DNA of 64,000 nt from Lophium mytilinum (Eukaryota): positions 1,736,001 through 1,800,000 of the forward strand of contig MU004181.1 in the NCBI GenBank assembly GCA_010093605.1, written 5' to 3'. Shown in pieces: positions 17,541-59,457 of the stretch; position 1 is the stretch's first letter, and every line of letters begins with the position of its first letter. Under the pieces are notes generated by a model. The model did no database searches. It was given only the letters and a program-made list of their open reading frames with translations, and was not told the DNA's origin. The position numbers were made by a program, and so were the translations under genes.

Positions 17541-18411
17541 ATTTGTTACGTTCAGCATCATGCAGATTCATCGGATGCTCCATTTGCTCTGAAGCTGAGC
17601 TGGAAGTATGAACAACCGGGTAGCGCGTTGTACATATACCACACAACTGTATCTGATCGGATTTGTGCTCTCTTGCATCGGTGGCGTTGGAGAAAAGGAT
17701 AGATGGGAAAGGCTCTTGTATTATATCTGTAGTCAATCGCATAGCCCAGCATTGTATGTACCACAATAATCGTTGGGCTCGAGCCGTGTCTCTACCGCTA
17801 TCGTTTGAGTCACCCTACGCTCATGGCCAACATGTAAATGACTTGTGAAGGAACAAGATTCAGACAACGATCCCGCGGTGGCGTTTTACACAATTCCGTA
17901 AATCGCATGACCTGGCTGGCAGTAACAGCTGTTTGCGACTGTTTGGGGTGCCTCGGCGCATCATCACGAAGTTAGAAAATAGGACTGTGTTGTGAGGGTA
18001 TGATGGAGGCCAGTTTTAGAACGCCGTTGTACAGTGTCTTGCCTAGCTGAGATACCTCTTGAGATCAAATTCAAGGAGCAAAACGAATGCCGGTGAGCCC
18101 TGATTTGGGCGACCAGCAACTTGGGTGCTGCGGTGTGAGTTCATATCTTCACGGTGATGAGTAGCAACTGGGCGACGATTGCACGTCCCGATCATCACAG
18201 CAGTAAGGTTTGTGTGCCCACCCATTGAATTCATTAAAAAGATCATGATTCTATGGAAATGAGCAACGCCAGTTCGCCCCCACCTTCATGCATGACCATT
18301 GACTAGAGATAGACCCTAACCACCACCACATCCCAAACATCCCCAAACATCCCCAGAAATCCTCCTTCCCACCATTTTCGGATCGAGATTGTCGAAGCAG
18401 GCGCAAGCCGC

Positions 18412-20248
<1,837 letters not shown>

Positions 20249-22235
20249 GGTTGCGGTATTGAGTTGTTTTTTGGACTGGAAGTTGAAGTGAAGTAGGTTG
20301 AAAGCTCCTAGGCGCTGTCAGTGATGGCGATGATGGTGCAGAGTGCGGTGTTCTTACAGGCACAAATACTTGATTTGAGGTATGAGGACAAAGGTGAGAA
20401 GAGGGTCGAGGGGCGGACGAGAATTTGTATCGGCCGTGGAGGGCGCTAAAACGGAGTAGTAAGCGAGAGCCAGGGTTGCCCGCCAGGCCCCGCCGTCAGA
20501 GCCAGCAGAGCTTTCGGGCAGGTTCTCTCTTGCGGCGGCCCAACCTTGCTTCAGGTGAATTATTACGGCTAGCTATGCCTGCTTCTGCCGGCCAGCTGGC
20601 CTTATGCCGGCCCCAGATTTCTGGCTCTACACCGCAATTCTGGCGTGGTTGAGCTTCGCCACCGTGGTTTGAGGGCGTGATAGCCTCAAATTTCTGGCAT
20701 CAAAACAAGCCCCACCATTCCACGTAAACACAACTTGAAACACTTATCCGCCCCGAGTATATCCTGAAAGCCTTCAGTATCATCCTCTGACTATACTATC
20801 AATAAGTTCAATATACAATTCTAGATCACTGCACCTGACTACCTTCCGAAACAAACTCCACGATAACCATCGGTACAGCCTGAGCCAACCCTTCAGGATT
20901 ACTTCGGCTCCGAAATCACGCAACGAATCACAAGGCTCTTTTTCTAGTGGGTACTGCACAAAAAGGCGATGGGAGTCATCGAGTTCCATTATTTTATCCG
21001 AAGCAAAGCGGCGAGACTCATCAGGAGATATTCACTTCGACACAGCTCTAGATGTACACTCAACAGAGCGAAGGCAACAGACTTCAGTGTAGAGGCCTAG
21101 GCTCAGATTTAAACGGAGACACGTCCCAATCGGCAAACCGTTATAGTCAGACCAGGTAGAAGGTTGGTTGCCACACGTTTCTCCTATGGTTTGTCGTTCG
21201 TTTCATACCTTATGTTGATCAATTGCAAACAACTTTCTATGCGAACCGTTGATCGAGACTCATCTCATATATTGCTTCTCTCTCTTTTGTGATTGCAATC
21301 TCGTAGTTGTTCGATATTGAGCATTCATCAGTCGCCATCTGGAACCTAGACTAGCAATAACGAGATATTACACCTTCCGAGCAAATCAACTCATTTATTT
21401 TCTCTTACGTTTCTATCTCAGCAACCAACGCATAAGTGAGAAAATGATTTTTCTCCTAGACGCATCCAATTTCGAGGAATTAGGAAGCTTGGTGCCCACA
21501 AGAAAGGAAATCTGCAGGTTGATGATGGAGCGACCGAAGTTTGTCGCTCATCGAATCGCCATCAGAGCAAGAGTCGAGAGTGAACGGGATCTCAATGCCT
21601 ATGGCTATGGCCGCTTCCTCCAGAACCAGGTAGCATGCTAGCCACGTTGTTCGTAGATTTGGTAGGGCGAAGTGGATGAGGCTAGGTGTAGGTTGACAAA
21701 CGAAGCACAGTACATGCTTGATCTCATGAAAGCAGTCTCGGGCCCATACCAAGCTCAATGTTTGGAGCGTGGTATATTGGAACTTTCAAATACAAAGTCA
21801 GGTGACAACGGACGTAGGTGAGACAATCTCGATTCATAGCTATAATAGATTCCGTCAGGCAGTGTCCAGAGAGTATAGATGTTTCGCCATTTGGAAGATC
21901 TTGTGATAGAGTTAAGGTGTTTGAGCTACTTAACGAAGCTGTGAGTTATCCACTACAAGGGCGGAGGCTCGCCTGAAGGGCGGGCTCCGCCCTTCTATTA
22001 CAGTTGCAGCGTACGAGATTCGCTCGTAGCGCTCTCAATACCCTGTTTGGCTCTTGTGCTTGTATAGCCTCAGGTATCACTTCTTGCTGAGCGGCTTGCT
22101 CAGCTGTTGCTGGGTTGGGAATCGACCTGGCCAATATTCTCAGATAGAGTGATTTCTGAATCGATCCATCTAAATAGACCTTTCGTTGGGCGATGCCAAT
22201 AGAACATCACAGTTGGTAGGAGTCGAATCTCTATT

Positions 22236-22449
22236 GTGTGGAATTTGAGGCGGGAATTCACGCTATGGATGTGCAAGAAAGGTTCTGGGCAAGCAAAAGG
22301 AATTTGGGCACGGCATCCGAACGCAGGACCCTCGCCTACGCCAGCGGCGGCATGCCTGATGTCCTCCGCCATTCGAAACTTCAAAACAAGACAGAAAAAG
22401 ATTTTGAAGCTACTCTTTGATAAAGCGTATCATCCTTAGTGCAGGGGCC
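22236..22449 (-). pseudogene. Inverted 5'-truncated copy of the U6 gene (3' half plus downstream flank)
   Basis: Reverse complement of 22401-22449 matches 23065-23113 at 48/49 nt; T5 follows; gapped similarity to the U6 downstream flank continues to about 22236. Confidence 0.85.
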
Positions 22450-22876
22450 GCGGTTTCGCCAGTGAAAGGTGTATAGGATGGACTTCCTGTGAAAGGTAGT
22501 CTTGTGTGGGCTGGGAGCTGGACGCTGGCCCTACCACCAGCACAAGGATGATATCGGAAGTACGTCTCTACTCTGGGTCTCCCTTCTCATGCATAGCATG
22601 GTCCTAAGCGACATCACGGAGAAGCGCATAGTCCGATTTCGTCACACATGTTGTCGTGATGCCGGTGAAGCTGCCGCTAGTGGGAGGGATGTCCTCGTTC
22701 GCGGTACAGCGATGGAAAGACAACATCTGGAAAGATGCGAGACTGTCGCATAGGCCGAGGAAACGCTGCGCGAGAGGAAGGATCGAAAGCCTAGGGGTTA
22801 TGCGCTTTGCAAATCTCGTTGACGAGGCTTGGTTTGATGTGGTGTGGTGGGGAGGTCTCGAGTGGTGAGGGCTGCG

Positions 22877-22909
22877 GGCGGCTGGCGGCTGGCGGCTGGC
22901 GGCTGGCGG
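22877..22909. repeat. Heptamer tandem repeat (GGCGGCT)x4 plus a partial unit, upstream of U6
   Basis: Seen directly. Confidence 0.95.
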
Positions 22910-22965
22910 GGTAGATTTACTGCGCCCCGCTTCAGTACTTAGGTGGCTTAATTTTCTCCGCCTTC

Positions 22966-23120
22966 GCCTTCGGGCATTTGGTCAATTTGAAACGATACAG
23001 AGAAGGTGTGTACCATCCCCCCCCCATCACTCAGCTTCAAAACTAATATCTTCCAGATTAGCATGGCCCCTGCACTAAGGATGACACGCTTTATCAAAGA
23101 GTAGCTTCAAAATTTTTTTT
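22966..23120 (+). ncRNA. snu6: U6 spliceosomal snRNA gene with a spliceosomal intron; exon 1 22966-23005, intron 23006-23056, exon 2 23057-~23117
   Basis: 5' GCC-TTCG-GGC hairpin; CATTTGGTCAATTTGAAACGATACAGAGAAG | ATTAGCATGGCCCCTGCACTAAGGATGACACGC; ACAGAGA 22997-23003; AGC triad 23060-23062; T8 terminator 23113-23120. Confidence 0.97.
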
Positions 23121-23174
23121 ATGTTTTATTTTGAAGTTCTGGAATGTGGTCGGCGGCGTAGGCAAGGGTTCTGC

Positions 23175-23185
23175 GTTCGAATTTC
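23175..23185 (+). promoter_or_regulatory. Candidate downstream Pol III B-box for U6 (GTTCGAATTTC)
   Basis: Resembles the GTTCRANYC consensus about 55 nt past the terminator; A-box-like TGGTCAATTTG inside exon 1. Confidence 0.55.
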
Positions 23186-23541
23186 CCGCTTGCAATCTTT
23201 TTTGCGCATGCAGACTGTGAAATCCTGTCCCGCCTCCAACTCCCCCACTCGGAAATCAACGAGAAGTTAGGTGAGTCGTCGTGCACTGCTTCGTCTCCGC
23301 CTGTACCGTAGAAGGGAAACTGCGGGCGTTCTTGATTTTGGAAGGTATATGATCCGGATGGCTAAGTATGCATGGTTGCATTTCCGTTCAAGCATCACAT
23401 ATTAGCATGAACAACCGAGGGAAATATCAAGTGTGAAGATTCAGATATATTACTATTCAAGAAGTATTCAATCATGTGTTGCAAAGACTACATCGCCAGC
23501 GACGAGTCCGAACCTCTCCCACCCAATACCGCCCCAGACAT

Positions 23542-24285
23542 CTATCTCACAGCCCACCCCTTCTTAAACGTCCTACTCTCCTCATCCCACCCATCACTCC
23601 TCCGCCTCCGCCCCTGATATCCCCCTCCCGGCATCTCACTCCGACTCCTCTTCTCCGCATGCTTCTTCCCTCCATACGCGCCCAACAAGAGCCCCGTCGC
23701 CGTCCCTAAACCCGGGAATATCAAATCCCCCACCAGCGCGCCGCCGCCCGCACCGAGGAAGGTATCGCGGTTCTTGTACGCGACGTCGCGCTCGCCGTTG
23801 CGCTTCGGCCGCGACTGCGACGACGAAGAGTGTTTCCCATGGCTCCCATGATGGTGGTGTTTCCGCCCCCGCCGGTCATCGTCGGAGGAGTAGTATTCGG
23901 GCTGAGGTTGTTGGAGGGGCGCGGCGGGTGTGGAGTGCGCGCGATTCGGGCGAGGCTGGGCAGGAGCGGCGAGGTATTGTTGTGAAGCGGCGGGATGCGG
24001 GAGAAAAGGGGCGTTGGGGTGTTGGTTCTGGGGGTATGGGAGTGTTTGAGGTTGCGGTTGAGAGTGCGGGTAGGGCGGTTGTTGCTGAGGCCGTGGAGGG
24101 TATTGTGGGTAGTTTTGCTGTTGCTGTTGCTGGCCGCCTGGCGGCATCAGGCTGTATGCCGGTGGCGCATCGTCGAAGGGTTGAAATACTGTTGATGGAG
24201 GCGGAGGATGGTGCTGTTGAGGGTAGGGTGTTGCTGGCTTTGGCTGGGTGGCTGCGGAGCCGTAGTAGTATTCTTGCGCTGCCAT
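23542..24285 (-). CDS. Pro/Gln-rich protein with C-terminal glycine-zipper (2TM-like) segment
   Basis: MAAQEYY start; P/Q/Y-rich N-half; DTFLGAGGGALVGDLIFPGLGTATGLLLGAYGG. Confidence 0.8.
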   Translation of the reverse strand: MAAQEYYYGSAATQPKPATPYPQQHHPPPPSTVFQPFDDAPPAYSLMPPGGQQQQQQNYPQYPPRPQQQPPYPHSQPQPQTLPYPQNQHPNAPFLPHPAASQQYLAAPAQPRPNRAHSTPAAPLQQPQPEYYSSDDDRRGRKHHHHGSHGKHSSSSQSRPKRNGERDVAYKNRDTFLGAGGGALVGDLIFPGLGTATGLLLGAYGGKKHAEKRSRSEMPGGGYQGRRRRSDGWDEESRTFKKGWAVR

Positions 24286-24860
24286 TTTGCGGTCGATTAG
24301 GAGGAATTTGGAGATTGTAGGAGGGAAGTAGGCTGCCACTGTGACAGGGCTGAGGATATACTAATGTCTATAATCACGAGTCGTACATGATTGGCAGCTG
24401 ATGCCCTCGTCAAGCGTCGCTTCGGTCACCTGCAGCAAATCGCCGTCCACCCCGCCTACGTCACCGGGATCTTTGGTGGCGGCGAGTCGGGCTGGCCGGC
24501 TCGGCGAAGCCGCGGCACGCTTTGCATGTAGATATATTTAGATATCGAGTTGAACGATATTTAGGGACTTCTCGGAGTATTACCGAGATCTCCATACCTC
24601 AAATTGGCTAGCACCATTTGGCTACCTCTCATCTCAGTGTACTGTACATGCGGCATGCGAAATAACGAGTGAGTATTATTCTCGCACGAAGGTATATATA
24701 CATTTCGTGCCAAGCCATTATGAACAGTAGAAGTAATACCAAGAACGCAGCGTCTACTAGTATCGCATAAGGAAAAGTCTGTCCGACCAGTGATTAAGAG
24801 TTTCATCATCCAACGCTATCCGGTGCCGTCCTCTCCGAGTGGCCGAGCTTCCATGTCTTC

Positions 24861-26515
24861 CTAGACTTTGGAGTATCTGCTGGTTTCTCGCTCGACGGCG
24901 TTGGCTTCGTTCTTCTCTGGTCCCAACACTTGAGCCTCCACATCTTCAACACTTTTTGCGATCCCTGCAGGCACACCCTCGACCTTCTTAATCAAATTGC
25001 CTTCGTGAAACATCATGATACCGCCCAAACCAGCTACGATACAGCCAAAAGCGACAAAGGTGCCTGTGGCCCAGGATGGACGTTGATAACGATTGAAGTG
25101 CCACATGAAGAAGCAGAGAACGACCTGCATGAACGTGTTCATCGCGTTCATATGCACAACGAAATCCATCTTCCAGCTCGAAGTCGGTGTTGCCCGTACA
25201 CCTGTTGGCGGAGGGTCTGGGATCTTGGATGGCGGGATAGGGACCGCTGGGTTGGTAGGGTCGGCGGCTGAAGGGGCTTGAGTTTGGTCTAGACAATCAG
25301 ATCCGGGAAGTCGGAACCAGCCTCGATGGATACCCGCTAGCCTTCGGATACCAGTCATGGTGCGCTTGGAGCCGCCTAATCTCCACACCGCCCACCAGTA
25401 GAGATCTCTGAACCTCCAGGGAGCGAGACCAAACCCGGTAACACAAAAGAGGCCGTTCACAACCTGGGAGTCGATTTCAATCCATATCCGGCGGGGAGAT
25501 TGAATGTCGTCGCACGTTGGGTGACACATGGCAGGGCTGGCATTACATAGCAATAAGAAGAGCATACCACCCCAGGCAATCACATTCGCGCCGTAGACAG
25601 TAATAAGAAAGCCGGCTGGAGTCAGGAACCATTTCCAGAAGGACTTAAGGCCAATGACGGTAGAGGTGGTCCATGGAAGCTTTGGCGGCGGGACGTAGCC
25701 ATTTGAGAACTAGTTCCAAGTTAGTGACCTTAATTGGTTATTGCAAACGTTGCAATGTGAGAGGGTTCTGCACGATTCAACGACATGGCACTGACCTTTC
25801 GCTGTGGCTTGTGATGCATGTGGGGGTGTTTGTGAACATGCGTCTCAGAATCAACAGAGCTAGGATTTGATGGCTCAATTTCTTTCTCCTCCGCAATCCC
25901 ATCATTGGCCACATCGTAGTCTGGAGTCTTCCACGTTGGGTGATTATGGCTTGGTTCTTCTGGTATGGCATGCATCTCCTCCTCCGTCACCGGCGGGAAT
26001 GGCTCCGTGCCGACTTCAGGAGAGCCGATCGAGCTCTTTCTCTTCCCCTTTGTCAACCCAGGTGTAGCATCATTGGTGCCTGCTGTACTGAGTGCCGAAC
26101 TCGTCCTTCTCAATCGCCACCTCTTGTTGCCGCCTTCCTCGGCCTCGCTTGCCCGACGTTCTCTACGCTCTGTATACGCCACGCGTTGCCCATCATCGCA
26201 CCATCCAGCATTACTGAACGATCCGCTACGGATCTCGGGAAGCGTGGGCGCTTTAGAAGCGTGTGCTGCTGTCGCTGCCCACATTCCGGGCGGTGGATCT
26301 GCTTCTAGAATCTTGATGGACGCGGCCCGGATGCGATTTCCAGTCGAGACTATCGATGCGGTTGTGGAGGTTCTGGAACGTTTGTTGGGAGTGCTTGGTG
26401 TTGAAGGAGCTGGGTTTGAGTCTGAGGGAGGTCGATTCGTTGAGGAGGCGGTATCAATGTTCTCGAGGAGCGGGAATGGCACCGGCGTCGGTGTCTTGTC
26501 GCTGGAGGAGGCCAT
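24861..26515 (-). CDS. DUF2985-family membrane protein; intron 25795-25710
   Basis: Splicing joins ORFs 25730..26743 and 24861..25583 via FSNGYVPPPKLPW...FWKWFLTPAGFLITVYG; RRIWIEIDSQVVNGLFCVTGFGLAPWRFRDLYW. Confidence 0.85.
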
Positions 26516-57039: not shown

Positions 57040-58567
57040 TTAGATCGTCCACTTAAGATAGTCCAGCTCCGAGCCTGGTTCCACCCAGTCCGGGGGCTTA
57101 GTCGCCTCGTATTGATTGTACCCCACAGGAATCGGCTGTTTTTCGACTTGGTACTTCTCCCCGGTAATAGGGTGCTCAAATTCCTCGATTTCGGGATTCT
57201 CGTGTGGAACATGGTCGGGGCGGATAGTGTATGTTGCGCCTAAGAAGCCGCCGGAGAACTCGTCCAGAGCTTGGGTGAATTTGTCACTCTTCGAAAGGTA
57301 GCAACGGCTGTTCGGAGCCTCGGAGTGCGCAATCAATGCTGCACTAGATTTGAAAAGCTTGCAGCAAGACGGGCACCGCTGATCCTTCATACGGTGAATA
57401 TGGAGGATGTGCGTTTCCAGGTCGAAGTCATTCGCGAACTTGTCCCTATGATTAGTTTAGCAAGCTTTCGGTTCATAGGGGCCACACAGGACTTACTCGC
57501 AATGAGGAAACGGACATTGGTACGTCATGAGGATCGGATGAAAGAACCGCTGAGGATCAAAGTCCTTACACGTAGGATCCCAAAACCTATTCTTGAACAG
57601 GTTTATCTGGTTGTTTTCATCGACCAAGTCACGCGCCCTTATTTTATACTTCCATGCGTCGTCAACCGGAGTCTCCTTGGCTTTCGGGAAGAGTGTCTTC
57701 GAGACTCCGGCGCCAGACCAAGGATTCTTGGGCTCGAAAACACCTAGGTCAGCGATGTTGGAACCAACAGTTGGCTGAGAGGTTGGAGAAACGCTCATCT
57801 TGGCAACACGCGCCATCACACCGTCCATCTCGGGTTTCCCCTCCGGCTTCGACGACGGCAAGGCAGGGAAGCTTTCCCCGAGTCGGGGTGTGTTAATGGA
57901 TTCAGGCGTCTTCTCTGGCTCCAAAGCTTCGTACTCAAGCATGGGGCCTTGACAGTCATCGAGCAGAGCAACACCCCCTCCCTCGTCGTCATCTTGGGCC
58001 GCTTCTGCGTAGCCTGCGAGGGCATTTATCTTCGATAGCTGCTCCGGGGACTTGAGAAGTTTCGTGACGATAGTCTTGTGAGCTAAATGCCCAGCGAACT
58101 GAGCGGCACTGATTTTCGGGCACTGTCCTTTCTCAAGGTGATTGATCATCTGTGATGCTCGTGCGAACGTTTCGCCGCACCCGATGCATGGGACGTTCTG
58201 ATCAACAGGGTGGGACTTTACAAATGTTAGCACGTAGTGTTAAGCACGAGAGTTTGAGGGGTAAACTTACGGCGTCTAGATGGCGCTTCATGCCACTTAT
58301 CGACCCAAACTCCTCCCCGCAAACCCGGCAAGCCGCTGGATGCTGAAGAGGCTCCTCCGACTTGTGTTTGACGTAGGCTGCCCAATCCGGGAAGTCTTTG
58401 TCGCATTTGTAGCAGTAATCATGATCGTCTTGATACTTCTTATGGCGCCTTAGGTCTTTATAGGTCTTGAACTTCTGGTTGCAGGGATGACCGGTTTCCA
58501 AATCTGTGTAGCCGCTGCATTGATGTTTGTGAGAGGCGGCGAAGCCCGTCTCGTTTTCACTGGCCAT
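57040..58567 (-). CDS. C2H2 zinc-finger protein, 3 exons
   Basis: Multiple CxxC...H motifs (CYKCDKDF, CRVCGEEF, CIGCGETF, CPSCCKLF) across three ORFs joined by GT-AG introns. Confidence 0.85.
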
Positions 58568-59457
58568 GACTGCCGTGCTTGGAGGTTCGAACGGAGGTCT
58601 GGTGGTGGCGTGAAGATGATGTTTCTGGCAAGTTCACTGAGGTGGAGGCTTCAGCCAAGCTAGGAAGCTGTGAGGGTGTGATTGATCGATGAGGTGAAAG
58701 AGAGAAAGGCCAGCGAGATAGTTTTGAAATTTTGACCCTGACTGTCGGCCAAAGGAAGCGGCTGTGTTCACGTTGCCGTTCCGCTGCGAAGAGGCCGCCT
58801 TCGTCGGAGTTAGTTGAGCTGACGAAGAGCCCGATGAGGTAGAAGGGAGATCTTCAAGAAGAAGGAGGATAGTGCCGAAGAAAAGCCCAATAGGTTGAAT
58901 AGATGACAGGTGAAGTTCGTGAAGTCGAAGAGGAAGTGAGGTTGACGTCTGAGGTTGAATCGAATCTGGAAGTCGCGCTAAGACCTACCTAGTTTTGACG
59001 TCTTCCGCAACTGTGAAAAAAGCTGAGTGCCAGGAAGGGTTTGCATCAGAGTGGAGCTAAGCTGAAGAATGGGATGTCCTAGTCGAGCCTCAGACAGTGT
59101 CAGTGACGCGCAAGTTACTATATTAGATGCTCGCAACACCGTTGTCGAGGATAGTCTCGCGTAGGATACCATTGGGTAAAGATAGATTATTATCCACAGC
59201 AAAAACAACGTTGATTACGCAAATGTAAGCTTTCGCTACTGCTCTGGCCAGTCTACCATACCAAGGTTTATTGGATGCCACAGTATATCAGTCTTCAGCT
59301 TCACAGCAACTTCTTTGCACCATGAAAAGTCGTTGGATCATATTAATTGGAGTGGGTTTCTTAGTTTCTTTAATCAAAACCAGTACTAGATTCAAATCCT
59401 CGTACTACCAATGGAGGACCATACATGCGCCCCGAGGTAGTTTTTGTTTCTTGTCGT

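What the first reader, a model, noticed from the sequence alone, without database searches (positions are those of the whole stretch)
22966..23120. U6 snRNA gene interrupted by a spliceosomal intron in its catalytic core
Seen: the U6 sequence stops after ACAGAGAAG (23005) and resumes at ATTAGCATGG (23057). The 51-nt insert has a GTGTGT donor, ACTAAT branch site (23042-47), short pyrimidine tract and CAG acceptor, and its removal restores a canonical U6. It sits 2 nt after the ACAGAGA box and 3 nt before the AGC triad, so the unspliced RNA should be unable to form the active site. Known: mRNA-type introns in U6 occur in Schizosaccharomyces, some Rhodotorula/Rhodosporidium and scattered other fungi, usually explained by reverse splicing. 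Inference: a Pol III transcript here needs the spliceosome to make the spliceosome's own catalytic RNA, a possible feedback loop, and this may be an independent lineage-specific gain.
Basis: partly seen in the sequence, partly recalled or inferred. Interest (0 to 1): 0.78.

Follow-up and report, generated by a model that had tools for sequence, protein, structure and literature searches.

The report
Intron-split U6 snRNA gene in fungus
A filamentous-type ascomycete fungus carries a U6 spliceosomal RNA gene cut in its catalytic centre by a 51-base mRNA-type intron, a real but already documented peculiarity of fungal U6 genes.

Summary
Rfam's U6 model matches 22966-23116 (+) end to end (61.4 bits, cut-off 44), with one 51-nt insertion. 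Read by the GT-AG rule, the insertion is 23006-23056. Removing it joins ACAGAGAAG to AUUAGC, the model consensus.

The insert has GTGTGT, CTAAT with its branch A 10 nt before the 3' end, and CAG. That matches four TEF1 introns of the same window. Only 3 of 127,900 51-mers of the window carry such signals. A T8 terminator and a B-box-like GTTCGAA 55 nt downstream fit a live Pol III gene.

Splicing could not be shown. The one read-laying run gave no cover over the intron, even in the source DNA run.

That call did show intronless U6-like paralogues in the same genome. So the "spliceosome must make its own U6" loop is not obligatory here. No relatives could be fetched, so an independent gain is untested.

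mRNA-type U6 introns near the catalytic core are known: S. pombe, Rhodotorula, and the 145-genome survey of Canzler 2016 as summarised in PMC5855946.

Verdict: a new member of a known kind, of modest interest.

The parts
22966..23116 (+). U6 snRNA gene (pre-U6, 151 nt; mature form 100 nt after intron removal)
   Evidence: cmscan RF00026, 61.4 bits against gathering 44, model 1-105/105
22966..23005 (+). Exon 1 (40 nt): 5' stem-loop GCC-UUCG-GGC, then ACAGAGA box at 22997-23003, ending in AG
23006..23056 (+). 51-nt mRNA-type intron: 5' splice site GTGTGT 23006-11, branch CTAAT 23043-47 (A 23046), pyrimidine stretch, CAG 23054-56. It contains no B box.
   Evidence: Insertion in the cmscan alignment. 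The signals match four TEF1 introns of the window. 3 of 127,900 51-mers pass the same test.
23057..23116 (+). Exon 2 (60 nt): AUU, AGC triad 23060-62, internal stem-loop region (loop one nt longer than the Rfam consensus), 3' tail
23113..23120 (+). T8 run, the expected RNA polymerase III terminator
23173..23186 (+). B-box-like element (core GTTCGAA at 23175-81), 55 nt after the T run and outside the intron
   Evidence: GTTCGAA occurs only 4 times on the + strand of the 64 kb. The block is partly kept in the inverted partial copy. Its role as a TFIIIC site is inferred.
22315..22449 (-). Inverted, 5'-truncated U6 copy. It holds the 3' half from GGCCCC (equivalent to 23065), a broken T run and about 65 nt of 3' flank. 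It lacks exon 1, ACAGAGA, the intron and AGC.
   Evidence: blastn 55 nt at 96%; cmscan 25.5 bits, below the cut-off; alignment A1; inverted repeats I1-I3

Best explanation
This is a genuine RNA polymerase III U6 snRNA gene of an ascomycete fungus, with a 51-nt spliceosomal (mRNA-type) intron between the ACAGAGA box and the AGC triad. Pol III would transcribe a 151-nt precursor ending at the T8 run, probably directed by the downstream B-box-like element. The existing spliceosome would then remove the intron using GTGTGT, the CTAAT branch point and CAG, joining ...ACAGAGAAG to AUUAGC... and giving a canonical 100-nt U6. The insertion site AAG|A looks like an exon-exon junction. [quoted passage not shown] The gene is one member of a small U6 family that also has intronless and truncated copies, so splicing of this copy contributes to U6 supply but is not the only source. 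Shown: gene identity, the exact insert, the splice signals, the terminator, and the existence of paralogues. Inferred: transcription, splicing, the origin, and the share of cellular U6 made from this copy.
For:: full-length U6 match with one 51-nt insert and all conserved blocks intact. GT-AG boundaries restore the consensus junction exactly; the four 5'-proximal TEF1 introns of the same window are GTAAGT/GTAAGC/GTACGT/GTATGT ... CTGAC/CTCAC/CTAAC/CTAAC ... CAG/CAG/TAG/CAG, and two of them are about 51-56 nt, so the U6 insert has the host's intron size and grammar; 3 of 127,900 window 51-mers pass the same signal test; a T8 terminator, plus one of only four + strand GTTCGAA cores, 55 nt downstream; the 3' flank with this core is shared at about 78% with a second, truncated U6 copy, so the gene sits in a duplicated U6 gene unit rather than at a random retro-insertion site; loose ends of paralogous contigs show B-box-like GGTTCGAG/GGGTCGAG right after their T runs, so this family uses downstream B boxes. 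Precedent: the S. pombe U6 intron is spliced by the spliceosome (review passages; legend; searches show northern detection of intron-containing and mature U6).
Against: No spliced-junction or precursor RNA was seen. In one search the bin 23015-23055 has depth 0 in the source DNA run X1 and 0.13 in X3, so the data are blind there. No clear TATA box lies at -30; the only A/T-rich stretches are at about -18 to -9 and -54 to -47. GTGTGT is not among the four TEF1 donor hexamers. Intronless U6-like paralogues exist in the same genome, so selection need not keep this copy functional. The run X3 is only guessed to be RNA.
Confidence: 0.7

Rival explanations
1. Inactive copy: the intron-bearing locus is a silent or unspliceable member of the U6 family, for example a leftover of a reverse-splicing event. 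Functional U6 would come from intronless paralogues.
For: tables 5 and 5c. DNA run X1 holds a 6606-nt contig at single-copy depth (145.9) that passes from ACAGAGAA to AGCAUGG with four letters between and no intron, so an intronless copy with an intact core exists. A second contig (521 nt) is also intronless at this site. There is no clear TATA box and no RNA evidence.
Against: The exons show no decay: every conserved block matches the Rfam consensus. By contrast, the truncated copy in the window has a broken T run, the second intronless paralogue carries seven extra T that would terminate Pol III inside U6, and a copy in X3 has a mutated ACAGAGA. All splice signals, the T8 run and the B-box core are intact.
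Confidence: 0.22
2. The 51 nt are a chance insertion, a small mobile fragment or an assembly artefact in a U6 pseudogene, not an intron.
For: None specific. The source run's contigs did not cover 23015-23055, so the insert was not re-seen independently.
Against: The insert has exact GT...AG ends that restore the consensus junction, a branch site at the host's usual distance and the host's usual short-intron length. Only 2.3e-5 of window 51-mers do as well. There is no target-site duplication and no terminal repeat in the insert (one search lists no repeat there). X1 holds 0.98 of the sampled words of 18000-25000.
Confidence: 0.03

Closest known systems
Schizosaccharomyces pombe U6 gene (snu6) intron (Tani and Ohshima 1989; seen here only through the review PMC5855946 and through PMC8917221, PMC10484740 and bioRxiv 10.1101/226894)
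   Same: A Pol III U6 gene split by a short mRNA-type intron next to the catalytic core. It is removed by the spliceosome and explained by reverse splicing.
   Different: In S. pombe it is the sole U6 gene, and the B block lies inside the intron. Here the intron has no B box, a B-box-like core lies downstream of the terminator as in S. cerevisiae SNR6, and other U6 copies exist. The review places the S. pombe intron 'immediately adjacent' to the AGC triad; here it is 3 nt upstream. I could not check whether the sites coincide, because the primary papers are not held.
Rhodotorula hasegawae / Rhodosporidium dacryoidum U6 introns (Tani and Ohshima 1991; reference lists only)
   Same: mRNA-type introns in the conserved middle of U6.
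   Different: These are basidiomycete yeasts, with up to four introns per gene. Here there is one intron in an ascomycete. Their exact positions were not available to me.
Fungal U6 intron survey, Canzler, Stadler and Hertel 2016 (RNA Biol 13:119). The paper is not held; its content is known to me only as summarised in PMC5855946.
   Same: Many fungi have unrelated U6 introns with canonical 5' splice site, branch site and 3' splice site. They are concentrated near the ACAGA box and the ISL. U6 is multi-copy (mean 2.3, up to 20 per genome). TATA, A-block and B-block content is flexible. This locus fits every point.
   Different: Whether this species, or this insertion site in its lineage, is in that catalogue is unknown to me. 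The review notes that experimental validation of expression and splicing is still needed.
[quoted passage not shown]
   Same: It shows that a filamentous ascomycete U6 gene with an intron is already in practical use.
   Different: I saw only a table entry. The intron position and sequence were not seen.

Membership tests
U6 spliceosomal RNA gene (Rfam RF00026) | Covariance-model score above the curated cut-off over the full model | tested here: met
   61.4 bits against 44, model positions 1-105/105
U6 spliceosomal RNA gene (Rfam RF00026) | Intact ACAGAGA box, AGC triad and ISL-forming sequence | tested here: met
   All are identical to the model consensus in the alignment. The ISL loop has one extra nt, which is also present in the truncated copy.
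mRNA-type (spliceosomal) intron in a fungal U6 gene | The insert interrupts a conserved U6 sequence, and its removal at GT...AG restores the consensus | tested here: met
   23006-23056; the junction GAAG|AUUAGC equals the model consensus
mRNA-type (spliceosomal) intron in a fungal U6 gene | 5' splice site, branch site and 3' splice site like the host's pre-mRNA introns | tested here: met
   Compared with four TEF1 introns of the window; chance rate 3 of 127,900
mRNA-type (spliceosomal) intron in a fungal U6 gene | Precursor and spliced RNA present in vivo | tested here: inconclusive
   no contig of any of the 4 runs laid covers the intron or bridges 23005|23057. The tool warns that a filter drops contigs, and the spliced form would be the most human-like.
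mRNA-type (spliceosomal) intron in a fungal U6 gene | Intron shared at the same site by related species (dates the gain) | not testable with these tools
   No genome is held. The metagenome scans gave 0 hits and then 2 chance hits.
Pol III type gene with downstream B block (S. cerevisiae SNR6-like) | T-run terminator and a B block downstream of it | tested here: met
   T8 at 23113-23120; GTTCGAA at 23175. This is a match to the consensus core only; function was not tested.
Pol III type gene with downstream B block (S. cerevisiae SNR6-like) | TATA box about 30 nt upstream | tested here: not met
   No TATA-like run lies at -30. The review says fungal U6 genes may lack one.
U6 pseudogene | Decayed core, truncation or lost terminator | tested here: not met
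   Not met for 22966-23116. Met for the partial copy at 22315-22449.

The most novel reading that the evidence does not exclude
The fungus keeps a mixed U6 family: one canonical copy that can mature only through splicing, intronless variants, and many 5'-truncated 3' halves. Splicing of the intron-bearing copy would act as a homeostatic valve that couples new U6 supply to spliceosome capacity. In addition, the intron would be a recent, lineage-specific reverse-splicing gain at the junction-like site AAG|A.
Probability: 0.1. Interest if true: 0.55.

Novelty: new member of a known kind. Interest (0 to 1): 0.25.

Why it matters
U6 introns are the classical footprint of reverse splicing at the spliceosome's active site. 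Each new, well-placed example adds a data point on which U6 phosphates are exposed to the excised intron; this one lies between the ACAGAGA box and the AGC triad, at a junction-like AAG|A. A genome that holds intron-bearing and intronless copies side by side would allow a direct test of the suggestion in the U6 review that splicing may regulate U6 levels. On the practical side, anyone using this fungus's U6 promoter for guide RNAs needs to know where the intron and the downstream B box lie. The phenomenon itself is well documented, so the finding is confirmatory rather than surprising.

Tried and rejected
(1) Whole-genome search for U6 paralogues: no genome is held for this window.

(2) RNA evidence. 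The run search listed 24 runs, of which 3 hold half of the words or more. I laid X1, X3, X4 and X6 on 22400-23600. There was no cover over 23015-23055 in any run and no 23005|23057 joint. X6 laid nothing, and X4 gave one low-depth piece. This says nothing for or against splicing: the tool's filter removes contigs, and a spliced U6 is highly human-like.

(3) Relatives. A metagenome scan with the exon-GT...AG-exon pattern gave 0 hits. A scan with the exon 1 end plus GT gave 2 loci, L001 and L002. Neither is U6 by eye or by cmscan: 0 of 2.

(4) Literature. Canzler 2016 is not held by PMC id or by DOI. Potashkin 1989, Takahashi 1993 and Frendewey 1990 are not held. Five full-text searches found no paper in the library that gives U6 intron positions for filamentous ascomycetes. 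I therefore cannot say whether this site or this lineage is already in print. The supplement of Canzler 2016 would settle it.

(5) Earlier notes of this scan: nothing on this genome, and no look-alike of the U6 stretch.

(6) The MFE fold of free mature U6 and of pre-U6 was not used, because free-U6 MFE folds are not informative.

(7) tRNA origin of the B-box region: ARAGORN finds 0 tRNA genes in the window.

(8) Organism. I could place it only as 'Ascomycota' with a TeaR-like protein, plus eEF1A, SLS1 and other fungal families. I did not try to go further.

Full report
WHAT IS THERE

I read the stretch and scanned the whole 64-kb window against Rfam 15. One family reaches its gathering score: U6 spliceosomal RNA (RF00026) at 22966-23116 on the + strand. 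The score is 61.4 bits against a cut-off of 44, E is 4.7e-13, and all 105 model positions are matched. The alignment holds one large insertion of 51 nt.

Read by the GT-AG rule, the insertion is 23006-23056:
- Exon 1 (22966-23005) ends ...ACAGAGAAG, with the ACAGAGA box at 22997-23003.
- Exon 2 (23057-23116) starts AUUAGCAUGG, with the AGC triad at 23060-23062.
- Removing the insert gives exactly the model's consensus junction.

IS THE INSERT AN INTRON?

It begins GTGTGT. It has CTAAT at 23043-47, with the branch A 10 nt from the 3' end, followed by a short pyrimidine stretch, and it ends CAG.

For a host-specific yardstick I located the 5' exons of the eEF1A (TEF1) gene of the same window (18412-20248, minus strand; Pfam) and read its four introns:

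| Donor | Branch | Acceptor | Length |
|---|---|---|---|
| GTAAGT | CTGAC | CAG | about 105 nt |
| GTAAGC | CTCAC | CAG | about 54-56 nt |
| GTACGT | CTAAC | TAG | about 247-249 nt |
| GTATGT | CTAAC | CAG | about 51-53 nt |

The U6 insert has the same length class and the same grammar. Its donor hexamer GTGTGT, however, is not one of these four.

Of the 127,900 51-mers of the window on both strands, 3 combine GTNNGT, CTRAY 6-30 nt from the end, and YAG. The boundaries here are fixed independently by the U6 alignment, so a chance origin is excluded for practical purposes. The site AAG|A also resembles an exon-exon junction (read directly from the sequence).

IS IT A LIVE GENE?

- **Intact core.** The exons are undecayed.
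- **Terminator.** A T8 run follows at 23113-23120.
- **B-box-like core.** The core GTTCGAA starts at 23175, 55 nt after the T run. It is one of only four occurrences on the + strand in 64 kb. The intron itself has no B box. The layout is therefore that of S. cerevisiae SNR6 (downstream B block) and not that of S. pombe, where the B block lies in the intron (review PMC5855946).
- **TATA box.** I see no clear TATA box at -30. The same review says fungal U6 genes may or may not have one.
- **tRNA genes.** ARAGORN finds none in the window.

A U6 FAMILY, NOT A SINGLE GENE

A sensitive Rfam scan (3 matches with E up to 1) and blastn show a second U6 piece in the window. It is an inverted, 5'-truncated copy at 22315-22449 (-). 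It starts at GGCCCC, equivalent to 23065, and runs through a broken T run and about 65 nt of 3' flank that includes the B-box-like block. Identity is 96% over 55 nt and about 78% in the flank. It lacks exon 1, the ACAGAGA box, the intron and the AGC triad. The duplication was therefore at the DNA level and included the flank.

No whole genome is held, so I used the single run search and the single read-laying run. Run X1/X2 (DNA, probably the source of the assembly) holds 0.98 of the sampled words of 18000-25000. X3 (guessed to be RNA, another organism label) holds 0.66. I laid X1, X3, X4 and X6 on 22400-23600.

In X1, 38 contigs were laid. Summed contig depth is 14,911 over 23056-23096 and 1,225 over 22974-23014, against about 158-163 in the flanks. 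The tool warns that this is not a copy number, but it does show many U6-like contigs, mostly 3' halves.

Two X1 contigs at single-copy depth cross the intron site without the intron:
- One (6606 nt) has four other letters in place of the four between ACAGAGAA and AGC. That is two substitutions, with the core intact.
- The other (521 nt) is canonical at the junction but has seven extra T after AGCA. That would stop Pol III inside U6.

X3 holds an intronless copy with a mutated ACAGAGA box, at depth 5.3. Loose ends of paralogous contigs show B-box-like motifs directly after their T runs.

WHAT COULD NOT BE SHOWN

No contig in any of the four runs covers 23015-23055 or joins 23005 to 23057, not even in the source run. 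The tool states that a filter drops contigs. A spliced U6 would be the most human-like form and so the most likely to be dropped. Expression and splicing of this copy therefore remain open.

Relatives could not be fetched:
- The first metagenome scan found nothing.
- The second found two loci that are not U6.

The claim of an independent, lineage-specific gain is untested.

The organism can be placed only as an ascomycete. The evidence is a TeaR-like protein whose nearest Atlas clusters are Ascomycota, eEF1A, SLS1, ferric reductase and rhomboid genes, and short introns.

COMPARISON WITH WHAT IS KNOWN

From the passages I read in PMC5855946:
- The sole S. pombe U6 gene has an intron next to the AGC triad that the spliceosome removes. 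It is the classical argument for reverse splicing.
- A survey of 145 fungal genomes (Canzler et al. 2016) found on average 2.3 and up to 20 U6 genes per genome.
- That survey found many unrelated introns with canonical signals, up to four per gene, concentrated near the ACAGA box and the ISL.
- The review adds that expression and splicing still need experimental validation, and that splicing might regulate U6 levels where paralogues differ in intron content.

Intron-containing and mature S. pombe U6 are seen on northern blots (PMC8917221; PMC10484740) and in spliceosome profiling (bioRxiv 10.1101/226894, legend). [quoted passage not shown]

I could not read the Canzler paper itself or the primary papers of 1989-1993. 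Five full-text searches found nothing on U6 intron positions in filamentous ascomycetes. I cannot say whether this exact site or lineage is already catalogued.

VERDICT

The most likely mechanism is a Pol III precursor that is spliced to a canonical U6 (confidence about 0.7). The main rival is a silent copy backed up by intronless paralogues (about 0.2).

This is a new member of a known kind. It is of interest mainly as one more mapped insertion site between the two catalytic motifs, and as a natural mixed family in which the regulation idea could be tested.

Noticed in passing
window 22315-22449 (-): An inverted, 5'-truncated U6 copy 516 nt upstream of the gene: the 3' half from GGCCCC, a broken T run and about 65 nt of shared 3' flank. 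It forms a 55-nt, 96% inverted repeat with the gene (615 nt between the arms).
   Followed up: yes
window 23056-23137, seen through run X1: Summed depth of X1 contigs over the U6 3' half is about 95 times the flanks, and about 8 times over exon 1. At least one further contig, like the window's own partial copy, starts its likeness at 23065. There may be many 5'-truncated U6 3' halves with a shared breakpoint, for example carried by or produced by a mobile element that targets U6. The tool warns that depth is not a copy number, and this is unexplained.
   Followed up: partly
window 23079 to about 24334 (-), run X3 (record 14): A 1256-nt contig at depth 423 in the RNA-like run covers the P/Q-rich ORF 23542-24339 (-) and runs on at least 463 nt past its stop. 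It reaches into the B-box region, the terminator and the last 38 nt of U6 on the opposite strand. If X3 is RNA, a convergent mRNA 3' UTR overlaps the U6 gene's 3' end.
   Followed up: no
window 22877-22909: A (GGCGGCT) microsatellite of about 4.7 units, 57 nt upstream of the U6 start. X1's contig breaks there (record 1 ends at 22899).
   Followed up: no
window 18412-20248 (-): eEF1A (TEF1) gene with four introns in its 5' part, used here as the yardstick for the host's intron signals. A gene-poor spacer of about 2.7 kb (GC 0.41-0.51) lies between it and the U6 gene.
   Followed up: partly
window 23071-23079: The U6 internal stem-loop has a loop one nucleotide longer than the Rfam consensus (an insertion in the alignment). 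The same letters are in the truncated copy, so this is the lineage's normal U6.
   Followed up: partly
window 58541-58625 (+): A weak cmscan match to the plant microRNA family MIR7729 (25.2 bits against gathering 92, E 0.34), taken as chance. A GGTTCGAA motif lies at 58584.
   Followed up: no
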